Shown here: positions 4,258 through 63,364 of the stretch, one piece after another
How the letters are laid out: every line of letters starts with the position of its first letter
How positions within the stretch are numbered: the stretch's first letter is position 1
Virus record (IMG/VR): IMGVR_UViG_3300035698_012122
Location: 1 to 64,000 of that record
Source: a virus
Direction: 5' to 3' (one strand)
DNA length: 64,000 nucleotides
Made by a program: the position numbers and the translations under genes
The notes under the pieces: generated by a model
Databases searched by the model: none
Told to the model about the DNA's origin: nothing
The model's input: only the letters and a program-made list of their open reading frames with translations

Positions 4258-4950
4258 ATGGATATTAACAAGGTAAAGAAATGCCCATACAATCCACGCT
4301 CTATGACCTCAACTGCTAGGGATGGTTTGCGTGAATCAATGAATGACTTTGGTGATATTTCTGGAATAGTAATTAATGAAAAAACAAATAATGTTCTAGC
4401 TGGTAATCATAGATTCGATGAACTATCTAAAAAACATGGTAGAGGTAAATTAGTTTTAAATCATTTGGAAGGGGAATGGTATTCCATTGATTTAAAAGAC
4501 GGTGCTAAAACTGGTTTCAAAGCTAGAGTAGTTAATTGGGAATTAGATAAAGAACAACTTGCTAATGTAGTTGCTAACAATGATTTAATTACTGGTGAAT
4601 ACACTTCAGAACTACAACCACTTCTTAAAAAGATTCAAGTATCAATGCCAAAAGTTAAAATGGATAACCTTAGAATTAGTCCAATGATAATTGATGATGA
4701 TTTAGAATCTGATATAGATTTAGATGATGAGTACGAAACACCAGAGATTGTTAAAAAAGAATCTGAAAGGTCATCAAGGAAAAAAGTTACTGAAGAAGCA
4801 GATGAAACAGCACCATCTAATGTTAGAGAAATAGTTTCTAATATAAAAGTGATTGGGCCTTCTGATTTAATTGATGAAATTAAGTTTGATATTTTAGAAG
4901 CATTATCTGAAAAACCATATTACGATAAAATAAATATAGTGAAAGGGTAG
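4258..4950 (+). CDS. ParB/Srx-like N-terminal domain protein (paralog 1)
   Basis: YNPR, SMNDFGDISGIV, LAGNHR motifs; ATG 4258 preferred over TTG 4213 by alignment with paralog 2. Confidence 0.8.
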   Translation: MDINKVKKCPYNPRSMTSTARDGLRESMNDFGDISGIVINEKTNNVLAGNHRFDELSKKHGRGKLVLNHLEGEWYSIDLKDGAKTGFKARVVNWELDKEQLANVVANNDLITGEYTSELQPLLKKIQVSMPKVKMDNLRISPMIIDDDLESDIDLDDEYETPEIVKKESERSSRKKVTEEADETAPSNVREIVSNIKVIGPSDLIDEIKFDILEALSEKPYYDKINIVKG

Positions 4951-4952
4951 TA

Positions 4953-5735
4953 ATGGCAAAACCAATACCATTCGATTATTTAAAATTAGTGCTTGGAATC
5001 ATAAGTGCATTTTCTACTGTTGTTCTTCCAATAGCAATTGCGTGGTTAGTTAAAAACTTTAAAGCACTTAAGAAATCTAATGAGCAAAATGTTGAAATGA
5101 AAAAGCACTTAGCTGAAGAAGCCAAGAGTCAGTATAATAAAAACGTAGAATTTAATAACTCACTACAGACACAAATAAATAATGCAGTTAATAATCTAAA
5201 TTCAGAACTAGACAGAAGAACTGGATTATCTAATTACGAAACAGATAGAAATAGAAAAGGGATTGATAATTTATGTGGCAAACTAATGACTTCAGCAGAT
5301 AGGTTTGATGCCAAAGTTAAAGACGCAACTAGTAGAATGAAATCTGAAATGATTACCAAAGCAACATACTATATGGAAACTGCTAAACTAAAGGATGATT
5401 TTCTAAGAGACATTCTAATGGCAAAATCGGGGTTATCTGATATTAAGTGTACACCAGCTAATACTAATTTAACTAAAGATTTACGAAGCATAAATAAGAA
5501 GATAGAACATCTAAAGACAAGATTAGATAATGAAAGAATAGCTGATAATAAAAAGCACCATCTTACTAGAAGATTATTAAGTGCTGGTTTATCAGAACGT
5601 AAAGAATTACAAATTAAACATAATAACCTAAAAGCAGAAATTAAAAAATATCATCTTAAAACGGATAGTAAATTAGATAATTATAATAAGTTGCTAACGA
5701 GCTTGAAAGGTAAAGTAGACAAAAATAAGGTATAA
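4953..5735 (+). CDS. Membrane-anchored coiled-coil protein
   Basis: N-terminal hydrophobic helix (LVLGIISAFSTVVLPIAIAWLV) followed by heptad-rich sequence. Confidence 0.6.
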   Translation: MAKPIPFDYLKLVLGIISAFSTVVLPIAIAWLVKNFKALKKSNEQNVEMKKHLAEEAKSQYNKNVEFNNSLQTQINNAVNNLNSELDRRTGLSNYETDRNRKGIDNLCGKLMTSADRFDAKVKDATSRMKSEMITKATYYMETAKLKDDFLRDILMAKSGLSDIKCTPANTNLTKDLRSINKKIEHLKTRLDNERIADNKKHHLTRRLLSAGLSERKELQIKHNNLKAEIKKYHLKTDSKLDNYNKLLTSLKGKVDKNKV

Positions 5736-5739
5736 GGTA

Positions 5740-6222
5740 GTGGTAGATTCTAAATATATTAAAGCGTGTTTATCAGCATACTTCAGATTCAAAAAGCAAA
5801 CCTCATGTATTGCTACAGAAGTTGGTGCTTTTAATGCAGACTTTATAGCTGTTGGTAGAAGTGGTTTTTTAGAAATAGAAATTAAAGTTTCTAAATCAGA
5901 TTTAAATAATGATTTCAAAAAACGTAAACATCAGATATATGAATCTAAAAAAGATCATGCTTGGTGTCCACAACAATTCTATTTTGCAATTCCTGAAGAA
6001 CTAGTTGACTACGCTATTGCTAAATGTGTTGATAGACCTTATGGGATATTGGCCATAAAGGAATGTAATGATACTTCCAACAGGTCATGGATGGATAGGG
6101 TAAGAGTTGTCAAACGAGCTAAGAAGCTACATAATAACCCAATAGAAGCTAAAGTTAAAAACATAATCTATTCGAGACTAGCATCAGAAATGACAAATTT
6201 AAGAATAGCACTTTGCAAATAG
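5740..6222 (+). CDS. MmcB-like PD-(D/E)xK nuclease
   Basis: TE..ADFIAV..EIEIKVSKSDL..DFKK and FYFAIP motifs; GTG start. Confidence 0.7.
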   Translation: MVDSKYIKACLSAYFRFKKQTSCIATEVGAFNADFIAVGRSGFLEIEIKVSKSDLNNDFKKRKHQIYESKKDHAWCPQQFYFAIPEELVDYAIAKCVDRPYGILAIKECNDTSNRSWMDRVRVVKRAKKLHNNPIEAKVKNIIYSRLASEMTNLRIALCK

Positions 6223-6232
6223 GAATGTTAAA

Positions 6233-6943
6233 ATGTTAAATCCAAACGAAATAAAAAATGCTGATTACAATCCAAGAAATTTTAATCCTGAAAACTATGA
6301 AGCACTTGGTGATTCAATGGATGAGTTTGGAGATATTTCTGGAATAACATTTAATTCTGAAAGTGGTAATCTAATTACAGGTCATCACAGATGGAATCAA
6401 TTATGCCAAAAGTACGGAGTAGATAATTTAACTTTAAAATTAGTTAAAGGAACGGACAAGTATATTATATGTGAAGATGGTCATGACACTGGATATACTT
6501 TAAGGGATGTTAAATGGTCACTAGATAAAGAGAAACTAGCTAACATAACCTCTAACTCAGATTCGGTTTCTGGTTACTTCACAGAGAGTTTAAAAGGTCT
6601 TGTAGCTTCCATCAGTGATTCAAACCAATCAATGGTTTCTAAATTAAAATTAGGTGAAATTAAAGTACCTAAAGTGAAACTTAAATCTAAAAAAGAAGAT
6701 GTTGATTTAGATGACCCAAAACCAGCTAAATCTGAAACTATGATTTCAGGCGGTGGTGAAACGTACCTAACAATTAGATTAGAACTTACACCAGAAACAG
6801 CAAAAGAATTTCAGGAAATGGTAGATAAATTTAAAAACAAAGGTGATGGTGTTGAAGAACCTTTAAAAAGAGTTATTGGATTTATGAATAAACAAGACCC
6901 TGAAGAAGTAATAAAAACTGTTAGAGTTCGGAAGCGTATTTAA
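6233..6943 (+). CDS. ParB/Srx-like N-terminal domain protein (paralog 2)
   Basis: YNPR, SMDEFGDISGIT, ITGHHR; aligns with 4258..4950 including DKE(Q/K)LAN. Confidence 0.8.
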   Translation: MLNPNEIKNADYNPRNFNPENYEALGDSMDEFGDISGITFNSESGNLITGHHRWNQLCQKYGVDNLTLKLVKGTDKYIICEDGHDTGYTLRDVKWSLDKEKLANITSNSDSVSGYFTESLKGLVASISDSNQSMVSKLKLGEIKVPKVKLKSKKEDVDLDDPKPAKSETMISGGGETYLTIRLELTPETAKEFQEMVDKFKNKGDGVEEPLKRVIGFMNKQDPEEVIKTVRVRKRI

Positions 6944-7247
6944 ATACCTCATGTAATTTACATTTTTTCTTTTCCATACAATTATTTATCTTAGCAACAG
7001 TGGTATTTAATTCCCTAGCCAATTCCTTCCTTTTTTGTCGGCCAGAATTAGTATCTACTTTTTCATATTCTTTTTCTTTAATACCCAACAGTTCATGTAG
7101 GCCTTCTCTAATAGCAGTAGCATTTTGCGTTGTACCATACTTTTTAAATAGTTTGGACATACAACCTTTTGATAAAGTAAGAGTAAGAGACAATTTTTCT
7201 CTCTCATTCTTAACTGCAAATGGTCTACCTTTTTTAGTTTTGGCCAT
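6921..7247 (-). CDS. Small basic putative DNA-binding regulator (RHH/HTH-like)
   Basis: GRP, LSLTLTL strand then helices ending AIREGL; C-terminal ELARELNTT; AAGGA RBS. Confidence 0.5.
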   Translation of the reverse strand: MAKTKKGRPFAVKNEREKLSLTLTLSKGCMSKLFKKYGTTQNATAIREGLHELLGIKEKEYEKVDTNSGRQKRKELARELNTTVAKINNCMEKKKCKLHEVFKYASEL

Positions 7248-7283
7248 AATCTAATTCCTTAAAACCTCATTAATATACTCTTT

Positions 7284-7312
7284 ACATTACTATAATACTA
7301 TATTAATGTCAA
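7284..7312 (-). promoter_or_regulatory. Possible sigma70-type promoter for the minus-strand regulator
   Basis: Perfect TTGACA on the minus strand at 7307-7312; the -10 match is weak. Confidence 0.35.
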
Positions 7313-7417
7313 TTTTGTAGATAGTTTAGACAGTAGTAATTTGTTCAAGTTATTGATTTAAAGCTTAATGTGACTAATACTTATACGATAAGTAAATATT
7401 ACAAAAAGGACTTTGAA

Positions 7418-8152
7418 ATGGATAAGTTGAGGAAAACATGGTTTTCAAGATTTTTGCTATGTATAGCACCAATAGTTAAATGGATAGATAAGATATTTAC
7501 AATGCCATATAGCCACAAAAAAGTAACAGGTTTGCATTACCTATTGTGGAGAAAAGACATAAAAGCTGGAACTGTTTTTATAACTAATACTTTGGGTGCT
7601 GGTTCTAATCTAATAAATCCAAGTGATATAAATCACGCTGGAATATATTTTGGTTTTGGATTGTTGGATTACATCAATGACATAATCAAAATGAAGACTG
7701 AAGAAAAAGATGCTGAAACTATTGATTTAGTTAAGCGTTTACAAGATATTTTAAAAAGATACAATGTAAGAAACGATGTAAATTATGTTTTGGAAGCGGT
7801 TGGTCAAGGTGTAATCCCAACAGACTTAGTTAGTTTTTTGACATCTAAAGATTTAGTTGTTGGGAAGAAGCCAACATTCTGTAGTGATGAATTATCAATG
7901 GACGCTTCCCGAATAGCAGTTTATGATTTAGGTAAGGAATACGACTACTCATTTTCCCATAAGGATGACACCAAATATTGTTTTGAAGTTTGTGGTGATG
8001 CATATGAAAATGTAGTTGAAGGTAAAAAGTTAAAAAGAGTTGTATATAAGATTTTTGGGTTTAAAGTACATGATGTTTTTCTATCAGATACTTTTCAAAC
8101 AGGTGATTGGGAAACCGTCTTTGATTCCAGAAAAAAGATAGCACACAACTAA
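7418..8152 (+). CDS. Permuted papain-like (YiiX/YebB, NlpC/P60) amidase
   Basis: HAGIY, VLEA, GKEYDYSF and KYCFEVC motifs in permuted order; AAGGA RBS before ATG 7418. Confidence 0.8.
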   Translation: MDKLRKTWFSRFLLCIAPIVKWIDKIFTMPYSHKKVTGLHYLLWRKDIKAGTVFITNTLGAGSNLINPSDINHAGIYFGFGLLDYINDIIKMKTEEKDAETIDLVKRLQDILKRYNVRNDVNYVLEAVGQGVIPTDLVSFLTSKDLVVGKKPTFCSDELSMDASRIAVYDLGKEYDYSFSHKDDTKYCFEVCGDAYENVVEGKKLKRVVYKIFGFKVHDVFLSDTFQTGDWETVFDSRKKIAHN

Positions 8153-8165
8153 GGAAGATATAATT

Positions 8166-8453
8166 GTGAAAGATCAAAATAGATTATTTATCGGTGGACT
8201 TAATTTCACTACGAGTAGAGAAGAACTATTAAATGAGTTTTCTAAATTTGGTAGAGTAACAGACCTAAAAGTTCCAATCACACAAGAAACTGGTATGACA
8301 AAAGGTTTTTGTTTTTTAACTATGTCTTCACCTGAAGAAGCTGAAATGGTTATGGAAAAATTGAACGGTACTGAATACAATGGTAGAACCATTGGTGTTA
8401 AAAAGTATGTTCAACAACCAACAAGGCAAACAGAACATACAACGGAAATGTAA
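8166..8453 (+). CDS. Single-RRM RNA-binding protein
   Basis: RNP2 LFIGGL, RNP1 KGFCFLTM, LNGTEYNGRTI. Confidence 0.93.
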   Translation: MKDQNRLFIGGLNFTTSREELLNEFSKFGRVTDLKVPITQETGMTKGFCFLTMSSPEEAEMVMEKLNGTEYNGRTIGVKKYVQQPTRQTEHTTEM

Positions 8454-8457
8454 AACT

Positions 8458-10032
8458 ATGGGTAAAAAATTTAAAGTAAATAACAATGTTCTTATAAATA
8501 TGCCAGTGACACCTCAACAGTTTGGTGAAGCTTTGCAATTCCCATCTGGTCAAACAGGTGATTACTATTCGGTAATTGCGTATAGTTCTATTTATTCTAA
8601 AGTGTCTCAGCAAATGTCATCTATTGTAAAAGCTGTAGATGAAATGAGTAGCTTCTATTTGGTAGACGTAATCATATCTCAATTATCAGATGATGCACTT
8701 TCACCTAAAGTTTCAGATGATGAGATTTTTAGTTACTCAGCAGACAACAATGAAAAAGCACAAAAAGAACTTGAAAGAATGTCTAGGCATTTAGGACTAG
8801 ATCAACTTATAGAAAATATCACACCAGAACTTTTAAAATATGGTGAATACGTTTTAAGAACTGAAATAGATGAAGGCGGTGAAGCCCTTGATATGTCAGG
8901 AAAAGAAAAGAAACGAACTAGAAGAAAAGCAAAGTCTATGGGTGTCACTGAATTATGTGATGATGTAGAACAAGGTTCTGTAGTTTCATTAACTCAAAAC
9001 GGAACTGTAGAAGGTTATCTTCAAACCAATCCCTTTACTGGTGGAGTTGAAAGAAAACAATTTGCAGACTTTATTAAATTCACATTAGGTGGTCAACGGA
9101 TAAGAGTAGATACTAAAAGTCTAATTCCAAACGCATCACTAACAGATAAGAAATTTTATAAAATGTACAAGTCACTTCCAAGGTTCATTAGAATTGGGAA
9201 GTCAATTATTTATACATACTTAACTAAATTAAAAGAGTTAGAGCTATTAGAAAAAATGGCCCCAGCTTTAAAACTAGATGCAATATCTAGGGGTAATTTA
9301 GTTGGTATGAATTTACCAGATAGATATAATCTGGAAGATGCTAAAAAGGCATCTACTCACTTTGAAGAAACTCTTAATAAAAAAGTCTCAATTGATCCAA
9401 CATCTTCAGATATTTCAGTAGCTAATATTATAACAACTGCTGGTAAAACTAGAATCATTCCATTGTTTGGCGATAAAGGTTCTTTGCAGAACTTAGATTA
9501 CAAAGATGACAATGCAAGTGAGTTATCATCTGAAGCTGAAGACCTTAGAAAACTTATCCTAAGTTCTGTAGGTATTCCATTTGAATTGGTATATGGTTCT
9601 GATGGTGATGGTAAAGGTGAAATACTTAAGCGAAATGCTAAGTACGTTAGATTCCTTAGAAAAATTCAAAAATCTATTTCCAATGGTTTGAGAGACTTAG
9701 CGTATATACATTTATCAAACAAAAACATTGATTATAAAAAAGAAGACATTTCAGTTCACTTTAATAAAAATTTAGTCGATATAGAAAACCTAGATCAAAT
9801 TGAACGTGATGAAGCAACAGTTAGTGGTTTATCTTCAGTATTAGATTTTGTAACAGAACTGAAAGATGCAATTGGTGAAGATAGGGTAAACCTAGAACCA
9901 ATTGCTAAATACATGGATGAGAATCTATCTACCATCGGTTTAACAGGTCTGATTAAAATGGATGACATCAAACCAGATGAACCACTTGTAACTGATGATG
10001 AAGAAGGGGAAGAAAATGAAGTTGTGCAATAA
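8458..10032 (+). CDS. Portal protein (T4 gp20-like position)
   Basis: About 524 aa, upstream of core, protease and capsid genes; LLKYGEYVL and LRKLILSSVGIP portal-like segments; acidic tail. Confidence 0.75.
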   Translation: MGKKFKVNNNVLINMPVTPQQFGEALQFPSGQTGDYYSVIAYSSIYSKVSQQMSSIVKAVDEMSSFYLVDVIISQLSDDALSPKVSDDEIFSYSADNNEKAQKELERMSRHLGLDQLIENITPELLKYGEYVLRTEIDEGGEALDMSGKEKKRTRRKAKSMGVTELCDDVEQGSVVSLTQNGTVEGYLQTNPFTGGVERKQFADFIKFTLGGQRIRVDTKSLIPNASLTDKKFYKMYKSLPRFIRIGKSIIYTYLTKLKELELLEKMAPALKLDAISRGNLVGMNLPDRYNLEDAKKASTHFEETLNKKVSIDPTSSDISVANIITTAGKTRIIPLFGDKGSLQNLDYKDDNASELSSEAEDLRKLILSSVGIPFELVYGSDGDGKGEILKRNAKYVRFLRKIQKSISNGLRDLAYIHLSNKNIDYKKEDISVHFNKNLVDIENLDQIERDEATVSGLSSVLDFVTELKDAIGEDRVNLEPIAKYMDENLSTIGLTGLIKMDDIKPDEPLVTDDEEGEENEVVQ

Positions 10033-10576
10033 AATAAATGAAGAGTTATCAAATGAAAGTGCCAAAGGCCTTAAAGACATTAACCCTGAATTGTTAAAAG
10101 TAATTTTAAAAGACGGTGGTGATGATATAGCTAGGGATGCTAAAGAGATTAAAAAGGTTTCAACTAAAGCTGGTGATGTCTACGTTGTTATAACTGATGG
10201 CCACTCTAACTACTTTAGTTTAAAGCATGGTTGGATTGGTGAAGAAGATGAAGGCCTAGATCATAAAGACTTTATCAAGCACCAAGATGAATTTGATAAG
10301 AACCTTAAGAAAAGTAAATCAGAAAAAATTACTGAAGCTCAACACTACAATACTAAAGTGCGTGAACTAGCTGAAACTATGGGTAGCCGTAAAATTAGAA
10401 TGGGTGTTAAAGAATCTAAAAAATATGTTGATAATATGATAAATGCAGATCATGCTTCACCTAACCCACTAGCTGATAAAGACCTTAAAATTCTACAGGA
10501 ATGTTCTACCCTTTTAGGTCAAACTATTCCAAGGCTTAAAGAAGTAAAGGAAACTAGACGCAAAGGTAAGAAATGA
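10016..10576 (+). CDS. Putative internal head protein with MKLC leader
   Basis: AAGGGG RBS before ATG 10016; leader MKLCNKINEE shared with other genes. Confidence 0.6.
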   Translation: MKLCNKINEELSNESAKGLKDINPELLKVILKDGGDDIARDAKEIKKVSTKAGDVYVVITDGHSNYFSLKHGWIGEEDEGLDHKDFIKHQDEFDKNLKKSKSEKITEAQHYNTKVRELAETMGSRKIRMGVKESKKYVDNMINADHASPNPLADKDLKILQECSTLLGQTIPRLKEVKETRRKGKK

Positions 10577-11247: not shown

Positions 11248-11472
11248 ATGGCCACTGTACCAGCAACTAAATTAGAAGGTGAAAAGCTACTTATAGAGTT
11301 AAGTAAGTTTACAGCAAAAGCTGGTAGAATCTTACTTAACAAAGGTAGCAAACCTGTTGAAAAGGATGAGGCCAGAACTGCATTAGGTTTATTAAACCAT
11401 GCCCAAGGTTTAGTTGGAACATCAGACCGTTCTGCTAGAAGATTATTAGCAATAGCCAAAAGGGCCTTATAA
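11248..11472 (+). CDS. Hypothetical protein
   Basis: 74-aa ORF abutting neighbours, AGGA RBS. Confidence 0.5.
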   Translation: MATVPATKLEGEKLLIELSKFTAKAGRILLNKGSKPVEKDEARTALGLLNHAQGLVGTSDRSARRLLAIAKRAL

Positions 11473-11474
11473 AA

Positions 11475-11903: not shown

Positions 11904-11916
11904 GGGGTAAGGAATT

Positions 11917-13983: not shown

Positions 13984-13997
13984 TAAATAGAGTAATT

Positions 13998-54086: not shown

Positions 54087-54100
54087 TTAACCCATAAACT

Positions 54101-54991: not shown

Positions 54992-55000
54992 TGCTATAAT
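54992..55000 (+). promoter_or_regulatory. Extended -10 promoter
   Basis: TGCTATAAT 21 nt upstream of ATG 55022; AAGGGA RBS follows. Confidence 0.6.
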
Positions 55001-55021
55001 CTAATTAACCAAAGGGAATAC

Positions 55022-55351: not shown

Positions 55352-55360
55352 GGAATTATT

Positions 55361-56318: not shown

Positions 56319-57154
56319 TCTTTTTCACCATAATGCTTAAAGATATTTAGAAGTTTTAGAATGAAATCCATATTATCCATTAGATAATTTTGTTGCTTGT
56401 GAGTTAGAGTTTTAAATACTTCATCCCTACCAGCTAGATACATTCTAGGGTCAATCTTTTCGAGTATTCTACTGGTTTCTATATTAACTGGAAGATTAGC
56501 AACTAACCAAAATAATTTCTTAGGTAACTTTGGTTCTGATAGCTTATTTTCAATTGCTACATCAATTTCAAATAACGCTTCACCTAAATGATTACCATGT
56601 GCTTTGATCCAGTGGTTTAATCTGGTTCTAGTATTCCTACCTTTGATGGGTAGGTATATTTTATCGAAGTCAGTTATGTTTCTCATATCAGTTGTTGAAT
56701 CACCAACTGTTACATATTCATCCAAAAATAATCTTAGAATATGTAGGTCTGTACCAGTGAACATAAAAGCTAATAATCTAAATAGATGACTTTGGGATTG
56801 ACCAAAACAAAAGATGTTAGTGCACTCAATGTAAGACACCACATCTTCTATCTTATGGTTTGATAGCTTCTCACTACAGCTAGGACATTTGTTTGGTAAC
56901 TGTTTAGCTTGTGAGCTGTTCAAAACCTTATGTATTGGTTTCCCAACATCTTCAACATTGATTTCTAATTTAGAACCAACATGAAGACCTTCTTTTTCTA
57001 TTGTAAGTGCATTGTCTAAAAGTATAGCGTGTTTCAGAATATTTTCTTCATCAACTAATTCATCTTTTTTCTGCAAAACTAATATAGCTACTAATTTACC
57101 AGATGGTGCAACTTTATATATAATGTCTTTAATTTTTGATGTTACTAATTCCAT
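56309..57154 (-). CDS. Degenerate NAD-ligase OB-fold plus C4 zinc-finger protein, no adenylation domain
   Basis: IYKVAPSGKL..GLHVGS resembles the LigA OB fold; PNKCPSC..CTNIFCFGQ; AAGGA before ATG 57154. Confidence 0.65.
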   Translation of the reverse strand: MELVTSKIKDIIYKVAPSGKLVAILVLQKKDELVDEENILKHAILLDNALTIEKEGLHVGSKLEINVEDVGKPIHKVLNSSQAKQLPNKCPSCSEKLSNHKIEDVVSYIECTNIFCFGQSQSHLFRLLAFMFTGTDLHILRLFLDEYVTVGDSTTDMRNITDFDKIYLPIKGRNTRTRLNHWIKAHGNHLGEALFEIDVAIENKLSEPKLPKKLFWLVANLPVNIETSRILEKIDPRMYLAGRDEVFKTLTHKQQNYLMDNMDFILKLLNIFKHYGEKEWI

Positions 57155-57503
57155 ATTTAGATAAATCCTTAATGTAGCCGTTTTCATCAAACATTGAATC
57201 GACTTTTTTAATTTCTGTAGCGTACAAGCCTTTACTTCCATTGAAAAGTTTAAATGTAACTACGTCTTCAGCATACAGTTTTTTGTACTGTTCATCAGAA
57301 ACTATATTTTTATGATGTGCAAAGGCCTCTTTAGATTTTAAATACAATTTATCATTGTGGTCAAATTCTACATAAGTAAAACCATTGCCATGCTCTATAA
57401 TTTTCATCTTAGGTTCTACAAACCCAAAACCACGCTTATCAGAAGGTTCTGCTACTAAACCAACAGCGTCACATATATAATTATCATTTCCAGTGTCGTG
57501 CAT
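57129..57503 (-). CDS. Divergent cold-shock-domain protein
   Basis: RGFGFVEP (RNP1), AFAHH (RNP2), YKKL..VTF..GSKGLYATEI; insertion between the RNP motifs. Confidence 0.75.
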   Translation of the reverse strand: MHDTGNDNYICDAVGLVAEPSDKRGFGFVEPKMKIIEHGNGFTYVEFDHNDKLYLKSKEAFAHHKNIVSDEQYKKLYAEDVVTFKLFNGSKGLYATEIKKVDSMFDENGYIKDLSKYGISNIKN

Positions 57504-58084
57504 TATAAACCTTTCCTAATACCATATAAAGCAAGTAAACAACCGTCAATCATTCCATCATGTGGTGTTCTACATTTAGAATTTTTTAACCATTTTTCTT
57601 TTGGAAACAATCTATTTACTGTTACCAAGGCTATTCGCTTAGTATCTTTTTTAATTACTTTTTTCTTAATCCATTTACCATCATCGTCTTTTCTATCTGT
57701 TCTAACGTGGGTAACTTTATCATATTGTTTTGTATCACCACAAATTACTTTTTGCCAATTTTTAGGAAGTGAAGCAGTATATGGGAAACCCATTAGTTCC
57801 ACCATTCCATAGATTTTTCCACCTTGACGTTCTAATGATGCAACACCTTTTTTAGATATGCCATGAAAACCAGCAAACCTTTCAAGTATAATATGCACAT
57901 CACCTAACTGTTGAAAGTGCCTAATAATAGAATAAATCTTTTTAACGTCTGGTGTATCATCAGCAGTTATTAAACCTTCATCCATTGCAATTCGGTAACA
58001 TATTTTGGAATTGCTATCTAGTACAACAATCCCACCAGTTAAACCAATATCAATACCGATATAGAATTTTATTTGTTTACTCAT
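57503..58084 (-). CDS. ruvC: RuvC-like Holliday junction resolvase
   Basis: IGIDIG, ILE, PKNWQK, HDGMIDGCLLA. Confidence 0.85.
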   Translation of the reverse strand: MSKQIKFYIGIDIGLTGGIVVLDSNSKICYRIAMDEGLITADDTPDVKKIYSIIRHFQQLGDVHIILERFAGFHGISKKGVASLERQGGKIYGMVELMGFPYTASLPKNWQKVICGDTKQYDKVTHVRTDRKDDDGKWIKKKVIKKDTKRIALVTVNRLFPKEKWLKNSKCRTPHDGMIDGCLLALYGIRKGL

Positions 58085-58105
58085 TATATTCCTAAAACCA
58101 AAGCC

Positions 58106-60187
58106 CTAATTATCAAAACTTAATTTTGAAGTGTCGTTACTATATCTAACTACTTTTATTATGTCATCAATTGAATCTCTAATTTCTTTATTGTGTGAAA
58201 TTAGTATAATTTGTCTGTAGCCAAATGTTTTTACAAGCGTAGTTGTTATTATGGTAATCAATTTATTTAAATGAAACTCATCGAATGGTGCATCTACTTC
58301 ATCTAGGAACAACATATTTAATTTCATTTTACCTTGTTCACGTTTGATTAAATTAATAGCAATTCTAACAGCAAATGCAATTAAAGTTTTACCACCGCCA
58401 CTATCCATTTTAAATTTACGTTCTTTACCATTCTCAAGTATCTTAATTGTCATTTCTGTTTTACGTTTGTTTTGCCTTTCCATACCACAGTCTGGACAAT
58501 CGCCTCTATGGTTTTTTACAAAGTGATGACCACAGATACAAACAGGTTCTTTACCACCAATTTCTTTATCAGGTGAAAAGTTCATAGATAAATCCAATCC
58601 AGATAACTTTAGAATCATATTAACTTTATCTTGAATAGTTCCAAGTGAGTTATCAACTTCATCTGCTGGTATTCCATACTTTGAAAACATTATTGCAATA
58701 TCAGATAAATCAGCAATTACAATTCTAAGTTTAGATGCTTCTAATTCTTTTGCATCAATCTTTTCAATTGTTTCATCGTAGACAGAAATTCTATGAGTTA
58801 GAACTTTAATGTCAGCTTCTAATTCTTTTATTTTATCAGATAGTGCATCAGCTTGATTATTTCCAGTATCAATATGTTTTTGATTTTCAGCTAGAAATTC
58901 TTTTTCAGTATCAGCTAACTTATCTAATTCAGAAATACGTTTGTTAATTTCAGTTACATCAATATCACCTAATTTAGATAGTGCTGTATTGGCCTCATTT
59001 AGTTTGGTATTTATGCTAGTTGCTTCATCAGATAGTTGAACTAATCGTTTTGCATCCCTTAAATCTTGCTTAACTTCATTATACTCTTTATGTAGTTGTG
59101 TATGTTCGGCCTGATACGTTGTAATTGACCCTGTAGAGCTAATTGCATCACATTTTGAACCGAGTATAGGACATATGCCTTTTGACTCACTTATACCTTC
59201 CATAAGGCCTTTCAAACGAGACATACTAGAATCTAACGAACCTAGTTCTTCAGACAAGCTAATAATGTCTTCTCTTTTGAAGTTGCACGTTTGGAAATCT
59301 TTATTTATTTCATTTTCTATTCTTTGTAATTTATCACTGTAATTTTGAACATTAGTTTTGATTCTAGTAATTTCACGTTCATTTCTATTAGCTTCTTGAA
59401 TCTGATTTAGAACTAATTTCTTATCTGCTGTAATAGTTCTAAGCTTTTCTTCAGCACCTTTATGTTGTGCAATTACTTCATCCATACTAGATTCTATATT
59501 CTGTAATTTAGTATCAGATGCATCAGCTTCTTTATTCTTTTGATCTACTTGAATTTGTAAAGCTTCACAAGATTCTAAAGATGACTCAAAAGCACGTTTT
59601 GCTGATTCAACATCTTTCAATCTATTTCTAAATGTTGTTACATCTTTTTTAACTCTCTCAGATTTTTCTAACCAATGACTGTTATTCATCCACATCATCA
59701 TATCTTCAGATTGTTCTGCTGGTTTCTTTTTCATGAAACCTTCAATATCAGATTGCTTAAAAAATGCTGTTATTTCAAAGTCATCAGCATGAACACCAAA
59801 AGTATCTACGATAGCCTGTTTAGCGTCTTTAGATTTTTCAATCCAATCTACTTCTAACATTCCTTTATTTTTGGAATCTCTACCACGTTTTACTCTTTTA
59901 TAATCTTCACCATCATGCTCATTAACAAATAGTCCATCAATCCACATAACTTCTTCACCATCATGGATTAATTCAACTTCAGTATCAGCACGAGATTTAC
60001 CAGTTAATAGATAAGTGAATATTTCTAAGAACATACTTTTACCAGAACGGTTTGATTTACCTTTAATACCTTCATATTCCCCAACAACACACATGAGGGT
60101 TCTTAGATCAATGTCTTTTAATTTATGAGTACCTTTAAAAGGCCCAAAATTATGAACGGTTAATTCTGCTAAAATATATGACTTCAT
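58106..60187 (-). CDS. sbcC: SbcC/Rad50/gp46-like ATPase
   Basis: NRSGKS Walker A, Q-loop FKQ, coiled coil with CPIL, SGGGK signature, LFLDE, ISH. Confidence 0.92.
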   Translation of the reverse strand: MKSYILAELTVHNFGPFKGTHKLKDIDLRTLMCVVGEYEGIKGKSNRSGKSMFLEIFTYLLTGKSRADTEVELIHDGEEVMWIDGLFVNEHDGEDYKRVKRGRDSKNKGMLEVDWIEKSKDAKQAIVDTFGVHADDFEITAFFKQSDIEGFMKKKPAEQSEDMMMWMNNSHWLEKSERVKKDVTTFRNRLKDVESAKRAFESSLESCEALQIQVDQKNKEADASDTKLQNIESSMDEVIAQHKGAEEKLRTITADKKLVLNQIQEANRNEREITRIKTNVQNYSDKLQRIENEINKDFQTCNFKREDIISLSEELGSLDSSMSRLKGLMEGISESKGICPILGSKCDAISSTGSITTYQAEHTQLHKEYNEVKQDLRDAKRLVQLSDEATSINTKLNEANTALSKLGDIDVTEINKRISELDKLADTEKEFLAENQKHIDTGNNQADALSDKIKELEADIKVLTHRISVYDETIEKIDAKELEASKLRIVIADLSDIAIMFSKYGIPADEVDNSLGTIQDKVNMILKLSGLDLSMNFSPDKEIGGKEPVCICGHHFVKNHRGDCPDCGMERQNKRKTEMTIKILENGKERKFKMDSGGGKTLIAFAVRIAINLIKREQGKMKLNMLFLDEVDAPFDEFHLNKLITIITTTLVKTFGYRQIILISHNKEIRDSIDDIIKVVRYSNDTSKLSFDN

Positions 60188-60768
60188 TACATACCTTTTT
60201 CTAATTCAGTTCTTTCAGTATTTAAATCTCTGTTAAGTGCTTTTGCATCATCGTACTTATCAGGAAATCTAGCTTTTAATTTATCTTGATTATTAGACAG
60301 TGCAAGTTCTAAATCTAGGTTGTGAGATTTTGCCATTGAAATCATATGAGCGTAAATATTCATAACGTGTTGATCCACTAAAAAACCATCAATTTCTTTA
60401 CCATAAAAAGCTACCTTTTTCATCATGTCTAAAAAGTTAGATGAATCAATAACTAGTTGCTCAATACTAAATTCGACAGGTGCTAAAGAATCTAGTTTAC
60501 CAATATCTAATCCAAAATCCCTAATCGGAATGGCCAGATACCAGATAACATCAGCACCTTCTTCAGCTAGATTAACCTTATCTATTTCAAAACCGTTTCC
60601 ATTAACAACACTTAAAGCCAATGCCTTTTGAAAACATTCTGCTATTTCACCAACTTCAGTAGATACACCAATTGCACTATGAAGAAGATTAATTTTAAGA
60701 CCACTACCAATATGCAAGTTAACTGCTAGTGTTCTTTCACTTGATTTTACAAATTCTGCTAATTTCAT
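60187..60768 (-). CDS. MazG-like NTP pyrophosphohydrolase
   Basis: HSAIGVSTEVGE..EEGADVIWY..NQDKLKARFP. Confidence 0.85.
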   Translation of the reverse strand: MKLAEFVKSSERTLAVNLHIGSGLKINLLHSAIGVSTEVGEIAECFQKALALSVVNGNGFEIDKVNLAEEGADVIWYLAIPIRDFGLDIGKLDSLAPVEFSIEQLVIDSSNFLDMMKKVAFYGKEIDGFLVDQHVMNIYAHMISMAKSHNLDLELALSNNQDKLKARFPDKYDDAKALNRDLNTERTELEKGM

Positions 60769-60776
60769 ATTACCAC

Positions 60777-61988
60777 CTATAAGTATTTTAATGAGCGTTG
60801 ATATACTCTGATTAATCTTGTTTTGTCTTTTCTAATATTTCTTTTTAAATAAACTTGAACAGCATCTTTAACAGGTAATCCAAGTTTTTGCTTTGTTGAT
60901 CTAATTTTTCTAACCATTACGGTTCTAGGAATGATTGGTTTAATATGAAATGGTTTGTATTCTTTTTTAATACGTTCCATAACACCTTTCCAATCTGTTA
61001 AAGAGTTTTCAACATTGGTAGTCACATCTAATTTAACAACTGTATTTTCATCAACAGTTTCTAAAAAATCCAGTACATCATCACGTTCCATAAAAGACGT
61101 ATTATCTTCAAGCATTGAAACTTCTAATTGCTTGAACTGTAAACAATTTGTAGGGATGTAATTAAATACATGAGGCCCACCAGATATTTCAGTATTGATT
61201 TTTAAATCTAGGAAGTACTTTTCAGATTCACGTTCACCAAAACCACAATAGAATTGGCTACCAACTATATTGATGTTTCCAATTTTATCTTTTGAATGAA
61301 TATGAGCTTGAATAATTTCTGGTTCAATAAACCCAACTGGTGCATCTAACATTACTTTAGGTAAATAAACTGTAGATTTTCTAAGTAGGTTTTCTTCAGA
61401 ACCACCATGAGCACCAGATACATTTAAATGTGAAAAGACTATATGTTGTGAACCTTGTCCAACAACTTTCATAATCTGTTCTGCTTTTTTATTGATGTAT
61501 GCTTGAGTAGGAATATTTCTTCTTAGTTTACCTTCACTAACATTTCTCTGAATTAGTGCTTTAGAAATATGTGGTAGGAATGTAAAGAACAATGGGCCAG
61601 TATCAAACGTACCCATATTAATTGCTCTAATATCATCTACCAAAGTAATATTAGGGTATGCAGAACCTAACTCATGTACAAAATTCAAACATGAAACACG
61701 TTCGGGGTCTGATACTTCATCATGATTCCCAACCATTATAAATGATTTAAATCCTGTTTCTCTTAATCTATTAAGTATAAAGATAAAGAGAGTTATTAGT
61801 TTTTCATTTGGATTGTTTGAATTAAATATATCACCACCAAAAACATAGATTACTTCTTCACCAGTTTCTTTATTAACTTTAATTCCGTGGTCAATCATGT
61901 CTTCAATAATATCTAATATTTCATCATTCCGATCTATATCATCAGTTTTCAATCCTAAATGGAAATCACTTCCCCAAATAACTCTCAT
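60777..61988 (-). CDS. sbcD: SbcD/Mre11/gp47-like metallophosphoesterase nuclease
   Basis: SDFHLG, GDIF, GNHD, AHIH. Confidence 0.92.
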   Translation of the reverse strand: MRVIWGSDFHLGLKTDDIDRNDEILDIIEDMIDHGIKVNKETGEEVIYVFGGDIFNSNNPNEKLITLFIFILNRLRETGFKSFIMVGNHDEVSDPERVSCLNFVHELGSAYPNITLVDDIRAINMGTFDTGPLFFTFLPHISKALIQRNVSEGKLRRNIPTQAYINKKAEQIMKVVGQGSQHIVFSHLNVSGAHGGSEENLLRKSTVYLPKVMLDAPVGFIEPEIIQAHIHSKDKIGNINIVGSQFYCGFGERESEKYFLDLKINTEISGGPHVFNYIPTNCLQFKQLEVSMLEDNTSFMERDDVLDFLETVDENTVVKLDVTTNVENSLTDWKGVMERIKKEYKPFHIKPIIPRTVMVRKIRSTKQKLGLPVKDAVQVYLKRNIRKDKTRLIRVYQRSLKYL

Positions 61989-61996
61989 ACTATTCC

Positions 61997-63364
61997 TTAT
62001 GCTTGTACTGCATCATCATTGGTAACTACTGGACTATTCCTTTCATTTAATTCTTTATCGCTAAAGTCTTCAACTTCATAGGTTTCACCATCATCATAGC
62101 TACCCGTCCAAATTGGTTCAATTGCTTTAGGATAATCCAGAATTAGTTTAGCTAGTTCTTTGTTAGTTGATCCAAGTGCTTTATGAAAAGTAATTCTAAC
62201 TTCATCTTCACCAACTAACTTAGGTAAACAGTGTAGATACTCTGTTGTTTTACCCATTTCTTCACCAGTAAATGCATCAAACTTAGATGTTTTTCTAACT
62301 ACCATTTCGTTATCCATAAGCATTTTAGCTAGGCCAGAATACTTAGAAATTCCATGAGAGTATAAAATATCTACTACAGCTTTTTGAAATGGTTTAACAG
62401 AACGGTTTTTAATTGATTCCCATTCAGTACGCATACCAATCTTAACTTTTTTGCAGTTCTTCTTATCAGATTTAGGGCCAGTCCAAACATCTTTTGTAAT
62501 GTTACCCTTCAGCATACCTTTGAACCTTTGAGTGGCCCAATACTGCATTTTAGATTCACATAGAGATACTTTATTGTTCATGTACTTGTTAGCTACTTCA
62601 ACAATAGTAAACTGATTAATCATTATGTGAGTTGCCATATTATCTTTTAAGAATGGTACAAATGTTTCCATTTGCTCAGTCCATGCTCTATTTTTTAACT
62701 TAGATTCAAAACCTAATTGCTTCCCATCACCTCTAGCGTCTAGTGCATAGATTGTATTAATAGTTGGGAATGAATCACATACAGATAAAATAGGAATTTG
62801 TTTTTTCTTTTTTCTAATTGCAGTTATTACATTTATTTGGAATGAATAATATTCTTGGATGTTCTGAATACGACAAGTGATAAATGTACCAGCATCAATG
62901 TCTAACCCAACCATAGAAGCGTAGTTTTCATCAAACGCACCTTCACCATCATTAAGAATTACAACACCGCCCATGGCCTGACAATTTGCCATTAACTCAT
63001 AAGCTAGAAATGATTTACCACCTTGTGATTCCGCACCGAGTTCACAAAATGTACCACCAATAATTCCACCAGAGATAGTTTGAAGTGCAATGTTATTAAA
63101 TGGTATTCTATATTCGTATTTCTTCTTCTCTCTATTTGCTTTGTTAATAATATCAAATTTATATTCTTTAACACCTTTAACATCAGCTATATCATCAAAA
63201 GTAAATCCAGATTTAACCTTAGTAGCTTTTTTCTCAATTTTTCTAGTTACTTTTTTAACTGCTTTTTTAATTTCTTTAGGTGTTGATTCAACATCTAACA
63301 CTTCAGCTTTTGATCTAGTTCTAGGTTTTCTAGCTGGTTTAGTAGTCTTCTTTTTTGCGTTCAT
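61997..63364 (-). CDS. recA: RecA/UvsX-like recombinase
   Basis: AESQGGKS, DGE, CDS, INQ, KNR..PF. Confidence 0.9.
   Translation of the reverse strand: MNAKKKTTKPARKPRTRSKAEVLDVESTPKEIKKAVKKVTRKIEKKATKVKSGFTFDDIADVKGVKEYKFDIINKANREKKKYEYRIPFNNIALQTISGGIIGGTFCELGAESQGGKSFLAYELMANCQAMGGVVILNDGEGAFDENYASMVGLDIDAGTFITCRIQNIQEYYSFQINVITAIRKKKKQIPILSVCDSFPTINTIYALDARGDGKQLGFESKLKNRAWTEQMETFVPFLKDNMATHIMINQFTIVEVANKYMNNKVSLCESKMQYWATQRFKGMLKGNITKDVWTGPKSDKKNCKKVKIGMRTEWESIKNRSVKPFQKAVVDILYSHGISKYSGLAKMLMDNEMVVRKTSKFDAFTGEEMGKTTEYLHCLPKLVGEDEVRITFHKALGSTNKELAKLILDYPKAIEPIWTGSYDDGETYEVEDFSDKELNERNSPVVTNDDAVQA

What the first reader, a model, noticed from the sequence alone, without database searches (positions are those of the whole stretch)
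4855..62480. Codon-level avoidance of GGWCC, CCWGG and GCWGC
Seen: although the genome favours A/T-ending codons, every Gly-Pro I checked uses GGG/GGC (4855, 15474, 17191, 19988, 29467, and minus-strand genes). Every Pro-Gly I checked uses CCC/CCG (22369, 26365, 32933, 53858). Ala-Ala is rare and uses GCG/GCC first in 5 of the 6 cases I found (15153, 15504, 26134, 34137, 44970). Ala-Gly is nearly always GCTGG and Pro-Ala CCAGC, suggesting GCAGG/CCTGC depletion as well. Known: these are AvaII-, EcoRII/Dcm- and TseI-type sites. Inference: selection by host restriction of W-centred pentamers, or erosion by 5mC deamination; either could fingerprint the host.
Basis: partly seen in the sequence, partly recalled or inferred. 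Interest (0 to 1): 0.7.

Follow-up and report, generated by a model that had tools for sequence, protein, structure and literature searches.

The report
Phage genome purged of restriction sites
An uncultured salt-lake tailed phage has lost almost every copy of about 45 short restriction-enzyme-type DNA words, so thoroughly that the amino-acid pairs Ala-Ala and Pro-Gly have nearly vanished from its proteins, while the one G+C-rich word it keeps and favours (GGCC) may be covered by a cytosine methylase it encodes; this is an extreme case of a known anti-restriction strategy.

Summary
The window is the first 64 kb of a 76.7-kb phage contig (32.7% GC, myovirus-like, from salt-lake metagenomes).

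- **Pentamers:** the whole contig has 0 GGWCC, 0 CCWGG and 1 GCWGC. Codon- and context-aware shuffles expect 15-21, 12-15 and 7-8. GCAGG/CCTGC occurs 4 times against 46-69 expected.
- **Breadth:** about 45 independent words are purged (53 sites seen, at least 770 expected). These include 10 of the 31 testable hexamer palindromes, all at exactly zero, plus many asymmetric words depleted in both orientations.
- **Protein level:** of 400 dipeptides, Ala-Ala (6 vs 104), Pro-Gly (5 vs 50) and Gly-Pro are the three most depleted. Close relatives' polymerases also lack Ala-Ala and Pro-Gly. The likely targets are therefore N-centred (GCNGC, CCNGG), not only W-centred.
- **GGCC:** this word is enriched (129 vs 41-78). 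Every GGNCC is GGSCC, and 9 of the 10 surviving CCSGG/GCSGC sites sit in GGCCCGG or GGCCGCG. The phage encodes a C5-cytosine methyltransferase (694-1656).

Selection by many restriction systems is the best explanation. Erosion by 5mC deamination is not supported. A GGCC methylation shield is inferred, not shown, and the host stays unknown. This scan has already found similar dipeptide purges on other DNA.

The parts
1..64000 (.). Genome-wide purge of about 45 short words. It continues to the contig end at 76,685, beyond the window.
   Evidence: 53 sites seen against at least 770 expected; 37 of 64 hexamer palindromes are absent; 10 of the 31 with expectation of 9 or more are exactly zero.
694..1656 (+). 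Phage-encoded C5-cytosine DNA methyltransferase (320 aa). Candidate GGCC modifier; specificity not determined.
   Evidence: PF00145 E 1.8e-41. TIGR00675. PDB hits M.HhaI, M.HaeIII and M.MpeI. Model pLDDT 81. Conserved clade P0002-P0010 at 62-82% identity.
2..301 (+). ORF with a DUF1599 'nucleotide modification associated' domain, at the contig edge two genes upstream of the methyltransferase.
   Evidence: Pfam PF07659, E 3.7e-6, 27.6 bits against a cut-off of 25.
46251..46255 (+). The only GCWGC in the contig (GCA GCA, Ala-Ala), near the 3' end of gene 45165-46271.
15152..15158 (-). GGCCGCG heptamer (read on the minus strand) that encodes one of the six Ala-Ala.
   Evidence: GCCGCG/CGCGGC is seen 4 times against 0.04-0.17 expected.
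26133..26139 (+). GGCCGCG heptamer (G GCC GCG, Ala-Ala).
34136..34142 (+). GGCCGCG heptamer (Ala-Ala).
44969..44975 (+). GGCCGCG heptamer (Ala-Ala).
22369..22375 (-). GGCCCGG heptamer (CCGGGCC on the plus strand; CCG GGC C, Pro-Gly).
   Evidence: All 5 CCNGG sites of the contig are this heptamer.
26363..26369 (+). GGCCCGG heptamer (AGG CCC GGT, Arg-Pro-Gly).
32931..32937 (+). GGCCCGG heptamer (AGG CCC GGT).
53856..53862 (+). GGCCCGG heptamer (TGG CCC GGT, Trp-Pro-Gly).
15504..15508 (+). GCGGC (GCG GCG, Ala-Ala), the one S-centred GCNGC site that does not overlap GGCC. It lies in a small cluster of surviving avoided words (15474-15520).
40023..40026 (+). The only CCGG outside a GGCCCGG heptamer.
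28647..28651 (+). One of only two AGGAG in 76.7 kb, here used as a ribosome-binding site for gene 28656-29261.
12988..12992 (+). One of four surviving GCAGG sites; the others are at 15516, 19059 and 40183. There is no CCTGC on the plus strand.

Best explanation
This is restriction-site avoidance taken to an extreme. The contig is a fragment (CheckV estimate 64% complete) of a roughly 115-125-kb myovirus-like phage from saline waters. No integrase was found in the part held. Its lineage has been selected to lose the recognition words of many different restriction-modification systems, presumably the pooled repertoire of its host population. The lost words fall into four groups:
- Classical Type II palindromes: GCGC, CCGG, GAATTC, TCTAGA, GATATC, AGATCT, TGATCA, AACGTT, TTCGAA, GTATAC, CAGCTG, ACATGT/RCATGY and CAGNNNCTG.
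- Asymmetric 5-6-mers of the Type IIS/IIG/III kind: GCAGG, AGGAG, CCCAG, CAGCC, CTGAAC, CAAATC, AGAAAG, GAATGC, CTGGAG and others.

Where a synonymous escape exists it is used. Examples are GCT-GG for Ala-Gly, CCA-GC for Pro-Ala, GGS-CC for Gly-Pro, and TAAGGA-type ribosome sites in place of AGGAG. For GCNGC and CCNGG in frame 1 no synonymous escape exists, so the dipeptides Ala-Ala and Pro-Gly themselves were removed by amino-acid replacement.

Shown: the depletion, its codon-aware significance, its DNA-level (two-orientation) nature, the loss of the dipeptides, and the same loss in close relatives' proteins.

Inferred: the selective agents are restriction enzymes, and the pentamer targets are N-centred.

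Further inference, about 40% likely: GGCC is the one safe G+C-rich word because the phage's own C5-methyltransferase (694-1656) methylates it. GGSCC is therefore tolerated, and the few indispensable Pro-Gly and Ala-Ala are written only as GGCCCGG and GGCCGCG, where the methyl group overlaps the forbidden pentamer.
For: (a) Depletion survives codon- and context-aware nulls. GGWCC 0 vs 15-21, CCWGG 0 vs 12-15, GCWGC 1 vs 7-8, GCAGG/CCTGC 4 vs 46-69. In total 45 independent words give 53 sites against at least 770 expected.

(b) The signature is that of restriction.
- Hexamer palindromes split sharply. Ten of the 31 with expectation of 9 or more are exactly zero, and the rest lie at 0.6-1.9.
- Only 36 of 1378 non-palindromic hexamers fall to 0.2 or below.
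- Only one of 297 gapped palindromes (CAGNNNCTG) is purged, so the null is well calibrated.

(c) Asymmetric words are lost in both orientations relative to the mRNA. AGGAG is 1 vs 21-64 in sense, and CTCCT is 0 vs 7.5-18. CTGAAC is 1 vs 19, and GTTCAG is 0 vs 18-20.

(d) The missing GGWCC reappear as GGSCC (47 vs 11-21), which is a synonymous W-to-S change and not a C-to-T change.

(e) Among 400 dipeptides, AA (6 vs 104, z -10.5), PG (5 vs 50, z -6.8) and GP (18 vs 51) are the three most depleted. In 73 other phage loci the medians are AA 0.93 and PG 0.77. Other loci with zero CCNGG also have zero Pro-Gly.

(f) The trait is inherited.
- PolA of relatives at 72-82% identity has AA 0 vs 15.3 and PG 0 vs 10.6.
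- PolA at 35-51% identity has AA 104 vs 113.
- Distant PolA has AA 1.12 and PG 1.47 of expectation.
- A column that is AA in 13 of 27 outgroup PolA is AY or AF in this clade.

(g) The loss of S-centred sites is not explained by CCGC avoidance (42 vs 38-46). It is not explained by CpG shortage either: CpG observed/expected is 0.42, and GCC is followed by G at a normal rate except before Ala.

(h) The GGCC twist.
- GGCC is 129 vs 41-78 (z +15 or more).
- The three GGCC-containing hexamer palindromes have the highest observed/expected ratios.
- CCSGG overlaps GGCC in 5 of 5 cases and GCSGC in 4 of 5 (P 3e-4 and 9e-4).
- All nine are one of two heptamers.
- Trp-Pro, which forces GGCC, is kept here and in relatives.
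- A C5-methyltransferase gene is present and conserved in the clade.
Against: - The host and its restriction systems are unknown, so no purged word has been matched to an actual enzyme.
- Relatives' DNA could not be fetched, so inheritance rests on two proteins only.
- Gly-Pro depletion (0.35) is within the range of ordinary phage loci (median 0.29) and of distant PolA (0.61). It therefore adds nothing at the protein level.
- For the GGCC-shield part, the methyltransferase's specificity is undetermined. Sequence and fold match HhaI (GCGC), MpeI (CG) and HaeIII (GGCC) about equally, and the target-recognition domain has no informative match.
- A simple GGCC shield would allow 'G GCC GCN' with any second Ala codon. 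Only GCG is used, so something more than GGCC overlap is required.
- If GGCC's general enrichment is built into the null, the overlap P-values weaken to roughly 0.01-0.08 (my estimate).
- Two GCNGC sites and one CCGG are unshielded.
Confidence: 0.8

Rival explanations
1. Only the W-centred pentamers (AvaII-, EcoRII- and TseI-type GGWCC, CCWGG, GCWGC) are targets. Ala-Ala and Pro-Gly are rare because their only remaining spellings need rare GCS/CCS codons and a CpG, both of which this A+T-rich, CpG-poor genome disfavours.
For: GCS is about 10% of Ala codons and CCS about 6% of Pro codons. Every GCSGC and CCSGG contains a CpG, and CpG observed/expected is 0.42. Many other phage loci avoid CCWGG and GGWCC while keeping CCSGG and GGSCC.
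Against: - Gly-Pro faces the same rare-codon cost (GGS is 11% of Gly codons). Yet it is written 18 times with GGS and is no rarer than in control phages.
- A 2.4-fold CpG deficit cannot give 17-fold (AA) and 10-fold (PG) losses.
- GCC followed by G is normal (22 of 102) except before Ala.
- Control loci that avoid only CCWGG keep Pro-Gly at about expectation. Those with zero CCNGG lose it.
- The survivors are confined to two heptamers.
Confidence: 0.12
2. Mutational erosion. Host or phage 5-methylcytosine in these words deaminates to thymine, and the sites decay without selection by nucleases.
For: The three pentamers are classic 5mC targets. The genome is CpG-poor (0.42) with TG/CA slightly high at 1.14 and 1.19. 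A C5-methyltransferase is encoded.
Against: - C-to-T product words are not in excess. CTWGG is 192 vs 168-186, GGWTC 149 vs 157-189, GTWGC 257 vs 242-248, although this test has low power.
- The missing GGWCC are replaced by GGSCC, which deamination cannot produce.
- Zero counts for about 15 hexamers, most of them A/T-rich and without CpG (GAATTC, TCTAGA, GATATC, GTATAC, TGATCA, AGATCT), and for asymmetric A-rich words (AGAAAG, CAAATC), do not fit decay of a few 5mC words.
- GGCC is enriched, and GGTC/GACC is at expectation at 194 vs 196-202.
- No Vsr homologue is present.
Confidence: 0.03
3. A translation-level or composition artefact. Codon-pair bias, avoidance of internal Shine-Dalgarno-like sequences, or an inadequate null model creates apparent word avoidance.
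For: AGGAG, GGAGG and GAGGA resemble Shine-Dalgarno cores. Codon-pair effects are real in many genomes.
Against: - Depletion is as strong for the reverse complements on the coding strand.
- Purged words are 12-fold enriched for palindromes.
- Nulls that keep amino-acid order, codon usage and the 3-1 junction still expect 10-60 copies.
- 296 of 297 gapped palindromes behave normally.
- Real ribosome sites themselves avoid AGGAG and use TAAGGA.
Confidence: 0.02
4. Restriction avoidance is real, but GGCC is not methylated by the phage enzyme. GGCC is common only because the hosts lack GGCC-cutting enzymes and G+C-rich coding needs are funnelled into the one unpurged word. The methyltransferase has another target or another role.
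For: The methyltransferase's specificity is unknown. GGCT, GGCA and GGCG are depleted by about the amount that GGCC gains, as expected from funnelling. A plain GGCC shield does not explain why Ala-Ala is always GGCCGCG.
Against: GGCC is among the commonest restriction specificities (general knowledge). A phage that has purged every other G+C-rich palindrome yet triples GGCC is easier to understand if GGCC is protected. The confinement of all CCNGG and most GCSGC sites to GGCC-containing heptamers, made with the minor codons AGG and GCG, is not predicted by funnelling alone.
Confidence: 0.45

Closest known systems
Restriction-site (short palindrome) avoidance in non-temperate dsDNA phages. Surveyed by Rusinov et al. 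2018, BMC Genomics 19:885 (PMC6286503). Earlier work by Sharp 1986, Karlin 1992, Gelfand & Koonin 1997 and Rocha 2001 is cited from my own knowledge.
   Same: Under-representation of Type II recognition words against composition-aware expectation, strongest for palindromes. It occurs in a dsDNA tailed phage with no integrase in the part held.
   Different: The breadth (about 45 words at once, many asymmetric) and the depth are unusual, because amino-acid pairs are removed and not only synonymous sites. PMC6286503 does not mention codons, synonymous sites or amino acids. No paper in the held library links restriction avoidance to dipeptides.
Earlier cases in this scan of 'restriction-site purge erases dipeptides'. 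These come from an archaeal virus, freshwater, marine and peat phages, and a clostridial plasmid: notes e1-6023031, e1-5351561, e1-5320831, e1-5976087, e1-5846115, e1-6046913.
   Same: GCNGC and CCNGG avoidance carried to the protein level, with Ala-Ala and Pro-Gly missing (for the notes; here).
   Different: In those notes GGCC is also purged, so Trp-Pro is missing. Here GGCC is enriched 1.6-3-fold, Trp-Pro is kept (6 vs 7.2), a C5-methyltransferase is encoded, and the purge is near-total rather than total (6 Ala-Ala, 5 Pro-Gly). I did not re-examine those other genomes.
Phage-encoded C5-cytosine methyltransferases used for self-protection. Examples are the GGCC/GCNGC-methylating enzymes of Bacillus subtilis phages SPbeta, phi3T, rho11 and SPR (Trautner and colleagues; recalled from memory and not checked here).
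   Same: A phage carries its own PF00145 enzyme, and the words in play (GGCC, GCNGC, CCGG, CCWGG) are the same set.
   Different: Those enzymes are multispecific and larger. This one is 320 aa, the size of a monospecific enzyme. Here GCNGC, CCGG and CCWGG are avoided rather than methylated. Specificity for GGCC is only inferred from genome statistics.
Very-short-patch repair footprints, where Dcm/Vsr in E. coli enriches CCWGG and depletes CTWGG (own knowledge).
   Same: A methylated word is over-represented while one-step neighbours are depleted (GGCC up; GGCT and GGCA down).
   Different: The deamination neighbour for inner-C methylation (GGTC/GACC) is at expectation. GGCA is not a deamination product. 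No Vsr gene is present.

Membership tests
Restriction-site avoidance by a phage | The word count is significantly below a composition-, codon- and context-aware expectation. | tested here: met
   For example GGWCC is 0 vs 15-21 and TCTAGA is 0 vs 19-44. The 45 words give 53 sites against at least 770.
Restriction-site avoidance by a phage | Purged words are preferentially short palindromes or other restriction-type words, and the depletion is all-or-none. | tested here: met
   Ten of 31 hexamer palindromes are at zero, against 36 of 1378 non-palindromes at 0.2 or below. The ratios are bimodal. One of 297 gapped palindromes is purged.
Restriction-site avoidance by a phage | The effect acts on duplex DNA and is independent of the coding strand. 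| tested here: met
   Both orientations of every asymmetric word tested are depleted.
Restriction-site avoidance by a phage | The purged words correspond to restriction-modification systems of the host. | not testable with these tools
   The host is unknown. The source is salt-lake metagenomes. Relatives' contigs could not be fetched.
Restriction-site avoidance by a phage | The lifestyle is non-temperate. Avoidance is reported mainly for such phages (PMC6286503). | tested here: inconclusive
   No PF00589 integrase was found in the 76.7 kb held, but the record is only about 64% complete.
Erosion of methylated words by 5mC deamination | The C-to-T (and G-to-A) derivative words are in excess. | tested here: not met
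   CTWGG, GGWTC, GGWCT, GTWGC and GGTC are all within about 1-2 SD of expectation. Power is low because the backgrounds are 150-250.
Erosion of methylated words by 5mC deamination | Losses are confined to words that carry 5mC. | tested here: not met
   The purge includes GAATTC, TCTAGA, GATATC, GTATAC, TGATCA, AGAAAG and CAAATC. The likeliest methylated word, GGCC, is enriched.
C5-cytosine DNA methyltransferase (PF00145, Dcm/HhaI/HaeIII superfamily), gene 694-1656 | The protein matches the family profile above the curated cut-off and has the fold. | tested here: met
   PF00145 at 137 bits against a cut-off of 22. TIGR00675 at 133 bits against 100.65. Foldseek matches to M.HhaI, M.MpeI and M.HaeIII at E 1e-13 to 1e-17.
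C5-cytosine DNA methyltransferase (PF00145, Dcm/HhaI/HaeIII superfamily), gene 694-1656 | The catalytic motifs are present: I (FxGxGG), IV (PC), VI (ENV), VIII (QxRxR). | tested here: met
   YFSGCGG, ENVKNL and QQRVRV are present. The motif IV Cys is invariant in the clade. The Pro before it is Ser here (GWSCKG) but Pro (GFPC) in most relatives.
GGCC-specific (HaeIII-type) methyltransferase | The target-recognition domain is related to known GGCC enzymes, or GGCC methylation has been demonstrated. | tested here: inconclusive
   The alignment to M.HaeIII covers only the catalytic part (residues 7-169). HhaI scores as well or better. Methylation cannot be read from these data.

The most novel reading that the evidence does not exclude
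The phage combines two anti-restriction strategies in one coding scheme. Its own C5-methyltransferase makes GGCC a protected 'safe word'. The genome has been rewritten so that forbidden interrupted pentamers (GGNCC, CCNGG, GCNGC) survive only where a GGCC methyl group overlaps them. Those cases are GGSCC for Gly-Pro, GGCCCGG for the few indispensable Pro-Gly, and GGCCGCG for the few indispensable Ala-Ala. A methylase would then set which amino-acid pairs a proteome may contain and in which sequence neighbourhoods.
Probability: 0.35. Interest if true: 0.65.

Novelty: new member of a known kind. Interest (0 to 1): 0.45.

Why it matters
- **Reach of the selection.** Host DNA-cutting defences can constrain phage protein sequence and even ribosome-binding sites, not only silent codon choice. 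Here they remove two of the 400 dipeptides from about 24,000 codons.
- **A protein-only marker.** It also separates N-centred from W-centred targets.
- **Host matching.** The list of purged words is a dense fingerprint (more than 40 words) that could be matched to host methylomes in saline or marine samples.
- **A testable link.** If the GGCC link holds, it is a clean example of avoidance and self-methylation working together.

Tried and rejected
- **Near-DNA search** of 20 kb against 50,697 phage records found no match. The best large-terminase match is only 39% identical, to an Aeromonas phage, so there is no cultured relative and no host label.
- **Fetching relatives' DNA failed.** The question 'do relatives purge the same words?' could therefore be answered only through two proteins.
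- I then enumerated all gapped palindromes by program, with no typed list.
- **Methyltransferase specificity.** The PDB sequence search and the AlphaFold model plus Foldseek confirm the fold but cannot tell GGCC from GCGC or CG specificity.
- **No second enzyme.** No N6/N4 methyltransferase and no Vsr were found.
- **Deamination-product test.** No excess was seen, but power is low.
- **Gly-Pro at the protein level.** The depletion looked significant against shuffles (z -4.8), but control phages show the same low ratio (median 0.29). I rejected it as evidence.
CCGC/GCGG is at expectation here.
- **Sequencing runs.** Only two runs hold half or more of the test stretch, and both are labelled salt lake metagenome.
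- **Literature.** No paper in the held library ties restriction avoidance to dipeptide loss.

Full report
**What the sequence is.** The window is the first 64,000 bases of a single 76,685-bp virus record. CheckV rates it about 64% complete with linear ends, and its G+C content is 32.7%.

It carries these genes:
- a large terminase (2600-4162);
- a contractile-tail sheath (19889-21721);
- tail-fibre-like proteins;
- an SbcC-like protein;
- a UvsX-like recombinase.

Beyond the window there is a family-A DNA polymerase with an inserted uracil-DNA-glycosylase-like domain. It is therefore a myovirus-like phage.

No phage record is close. A DNA search found nothing, and the best terminase match is 39% identical. 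Close relatives exist only as proteins on uncultured contigs of 115-125 kb. The DNA is held by runs labelled salt lake metagenome. About 96% of the contig is coding in 81 ORFs, of which I used 78.

**Checking the observation.** The whole contig has no GGWCC, no CCWGG and one GCWGC at 46251. The codon-level statements all hold:
- All 18 Gly-Pro use GGG or GGC.
- All 5 Pro-Gly use CCC or CCG.
- Five of the 6 Ala-Ala start with GCG or GCC.
- Ala-Gly is GCT-GGN in 115 of 117 cases.
- Pro-Ala is CCA-GCN in 51 of 52 cases.

I ran 300 shuffles each of four models. All keep the amino-acid sequence and codon usage. The stricter pair also keeps each codon's first two bases and the next base, and therefore all dinucleotides.

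| Word | Seen | Expected |
|---|---|---|
| GGWCC | 0 | 15-21 |
| CCWGG | 0 | 12-15 |
| GCWGC | 1 | 7-8 |
| GCAGG/CCTGC | 4 | 46-69 |

No shuffle reached the observed values.

**It is much broader than three pentamers.** Of the 64 hexamer palindromes, 37 are absent. Among the 31 with an expectation of at least 9 under every model, 10 are exactly zero and the others lie at 0.6-1.9 of expectation. This is a sharply two-humped distribution.
- Absent hexamers with a high expectation under at least one model: AACGTT, ACATGT (in fact all RCATGY), AGATCT, ATCGAT, CAGCTG, CTGCAG, GAATTC, GATATC, GTATAC, TACGTA, TCTAGA, TGATCA, TTCGAA.
- Tetramers: GCGC is absent and CCGG is reduced to 6.
- Asymmetric words, given as seen vs expected: AGGAG 2 vs 29-82, CCCAG 3 vs 30-40, CAGCC 2 vs 23-29, CTGAAC 1 vs 38-41, CAAATC 3 vs 43-52, AGAAAG 7 vs 58-67. 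GAATGC, CTGGAG and others are also purged.

After removing hexamers explained by shorter words, 45 independent words remain, with 53 sites seen against at least 770 expected.

Two controls show the null is sound:
- Only 36 of 1378 non-palindromic hexamers fall to 0.2 of expectation or below.
- Of 297 gapped palindromes (3+N1-8+3), only CAGNNNCTG is purged (0 vs 17-21). The rest have a median ratio of 1.04.

**DNA level, not translation.** Every asymmetric word tested is depleted both as itself and as its reverse complement on the coding strand. This excludes avoidance of internal Shine-Dalgarno sequences and codon-pair effects.

The real ribosome sites have adapted. They are TAAGGA/AAGGA-type, and AGGAG is used only once.

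**Protein-level consequence.** The effect goes beyond synonymous choice. I shuffled residues within each protein and scored all 400 dipeptides. The three most depleted are exactly those spelled by the three interrupted pentamers in frame 1:
- Ala-Ala: 6 vs 104 (z -10.5)
- Pro-Gly: 5 vs 50 (z -6.8)
- Gly-Pro: 18 vs 51 (z -4.8)

I compared this with 73 other phage loci.
- Ala-Ala has a median ratio of 0.93 there.
- Pro-Gly has a median of 0.77. Control loci with no CCNGG also have no Pro-Gly, while loci that avoid only CCWGG keep it.
- Gly-Pro has a median of only 0.29, so its low ratio here is not informative.

The trait is inherited.

| PolA group | Ala-Ala, seen vs expected | Pro-Gly, seen vs expected |
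|---|---|---|
| 72-82% identity, five relatives | 0 vs 15.3 | 0 vs 10.6 |
| 35-51% identity | 104 vs 113 | 19 vs 81 |
| Distant | ratio 1.12 | ratio 1.47 |

One column that is Ala-Ala in 13 of 27 outgroup polymerases is Ala-Tyr or Ala-Phe in this clade. The CCNGG purge therefore appears older, and the GCNGC purge specific to this clade.

**W-centred or N-centred?** If only GCWGC and CCWGG were dangerous, Ala-Ala and Pro-Gly could be kept as GCS-GCN and CCS-GGN. Gly-Pro is kept in just this way as GGS-CCN, and the missing GGWCC reappear as GGSCC (47 vs 11-21).

They are not kept, and three other explanations fail:
- Rare-codon cost is the same for Gly.
- CpG shortage is only 2.4-fold, and GCC before G is normal except before Ala.
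- CCGC/GCGG is not avoided (42 vs 38-46).

I conclude, by inference, that GCNGC and CCNGG as a whole are selected against.

**The GGCC exception.** GGCC is the only G+C-rich palindrome that is not purged, and it is enriched (129 vs 41-78, z +15 or more).
- The GGCC-containing hexamer palindromes have the highest ratios.
- After a G-ending codon, Ala is GCC in 55 of 111 cases, although GCC is 7% of Ala codons overall.
- Trp-Pro, which cannot be written without GGCC, is at expectation here and is kept in relatives.
- Every GGNCC is GGSCC, which always contains GGCC.
- All five CCNGG sites are the heptamer GGCCCGG. Four of the five GCSGC sites are GGCCGCG.
- Overlap with GGCC has P = 3e-4 and 9e-4 against codon shuffles. 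GCCGCG is seen 4 times against 0.04-0.17 expected.
- The minor codons AGG and GCG are recruited to build these heptamers.

The phage encodes a C5-cytosine methyltransferase at 694-1656.
- It matches PF00145 at E 1.8e-41 and the TIGR00675 family profile.
- Motifs I, VI and VIII and the catalytic Cys are all present.
- Its modelled fold matches M.HhaI, M.MpeI and M.HaeIII.
- The enzyme is conserved in the clade.

The simplest reading is that this enzyme, or a universal host enzyme, methylates GGCC. GGCC and the sites it overlaps would then be safe.

This is an inference with real weaknesses:
- The enzyme's specificity cannot be read from sequence or fold.
- A plain GGCC shield does not explain why the second Ala codon is always GCG.
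- The overlap statistics weaken if GGCC's overall excess is put into the null.

I give this reading about 35-40%.

**Deamination.**
- C-to-T product words are not in excess.
- GGTC/GACC is at expectation.
- No Vsr is present.
- The replacement seen is W-to-S.
- Most purged hexamers are A/T-rich and have no CpG.
- The counts are exact zeros, not partial decay.

**Comparison with what is known.** Restriction-site avoidance in non-temperate dsDNA phages is well established (Rusinov et al. 2018, PMC6286503; older literature from my own knowledge). That survey does not discuss codons or amino acids. I found no paper in the held library that links avoidance to dipeptide loss.

This scan has already reported the same protein-level purge on at least eight other genomes. 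In those notes GGCC is purged too and Trp-Pro is lost. The difference here is the retained and enriched GGCC together with a phage methyltransferase.

I file the finding as a new, extreme member of a known kind. The GGCC-shield coding scheme is the unproven novel reading.

**Limits.**
- The host is unknown.
- Names of enzymes attached to words in this report come from general knowledge and are labels, not tests.

Noticed in passing
window 2-301 (+): The ORF at the contig edge carries a DUF1599 'nucleotide modification associated domain 1' (E 3.7e-6). It lies two genes upstream of the C5-methyltransferase. A DNA-modification module may continue beyond the start of this incomplete contig.
   Followed up: partly
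window, upstream of most genes (e.g. 11917, 23063, 35868, 42410, 45165, 51944): Ribosome-binding sites are almost uniformly TAAGGA/AAGGA(A/T), 5-8 nt before the start codon. The canonical AGGAG/GGAGG core is avoided even there, with 2 AGGAG in 76.7 kb. Word avoidance seems to have reshaped translation signals.
   Followed up: partly
window 694-1656 (+), residues about 71-78: Motif IV of the methyltransferase reads GWSCKG instead of the usual GFPCQ, with Pro-Cys replaced by Ser-Cys. Relatives carry either FPC or WSC (alignment A1). Whether this affects activity is unknown.
   Followed up: no
whole contig: There is single-base discrimination between near-identical words. CTGAAC is purged (1 vs 38) while CTGAAG is enriched (139 vs 80-91). 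GCAGG is purged while GCTGG/CCAGC is enriched (174 vs 100-122). CAGCAG/CTGCTG is enriched (48 vs 22-23) and occurs in both orientations.
   Followed up: partly
window 15474-15520 (3' part of gene 14151-15584) and 40023-40183: Surviving copies of otherwise purged words form small clusters: CAAATC, GCGGC, GGCAG and GCAGG within 45 bp, and CCGGC and GGCAGG near 40.0-40.2 kb. These could be strongly constrained codons or recently acquired patches.
   Followed up: no
L084 2933-5677 (-), which is contig 66933-69677, outside the window: The family-A DNA polymerase has an inserted uracil-DNA-glycosylase family-4 domain (PF03167). Several homologues at 40-50% identity, and one close relative (P0099, 80%), are 300-450 aa longer and carry intein or HNH domains (PF14890, PF13392, PF14528).
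   Followed up: no
window 22293-22316: An intergenic pair GGGCC...GGCCC forms a short inverted repeat just upstream of gene 22345-23034. G+C-rich stems here are built from GGCC, the only unpurged G+C-rich word.
   Followed up: no
control loci L054, L060, L062, L063, L066 (IMG/VR sample 3300045988 and 3300039333): Other uncultured phage contigs that carry C5-methyltransferases have zero CCNGG and zero Pro-Gly (0 vs about 10 expected). They keep abundant GCWGC, GGCC and Ala-Ala. This is an independent example of a word purge removing one dipeptide.
   Followed up: partly
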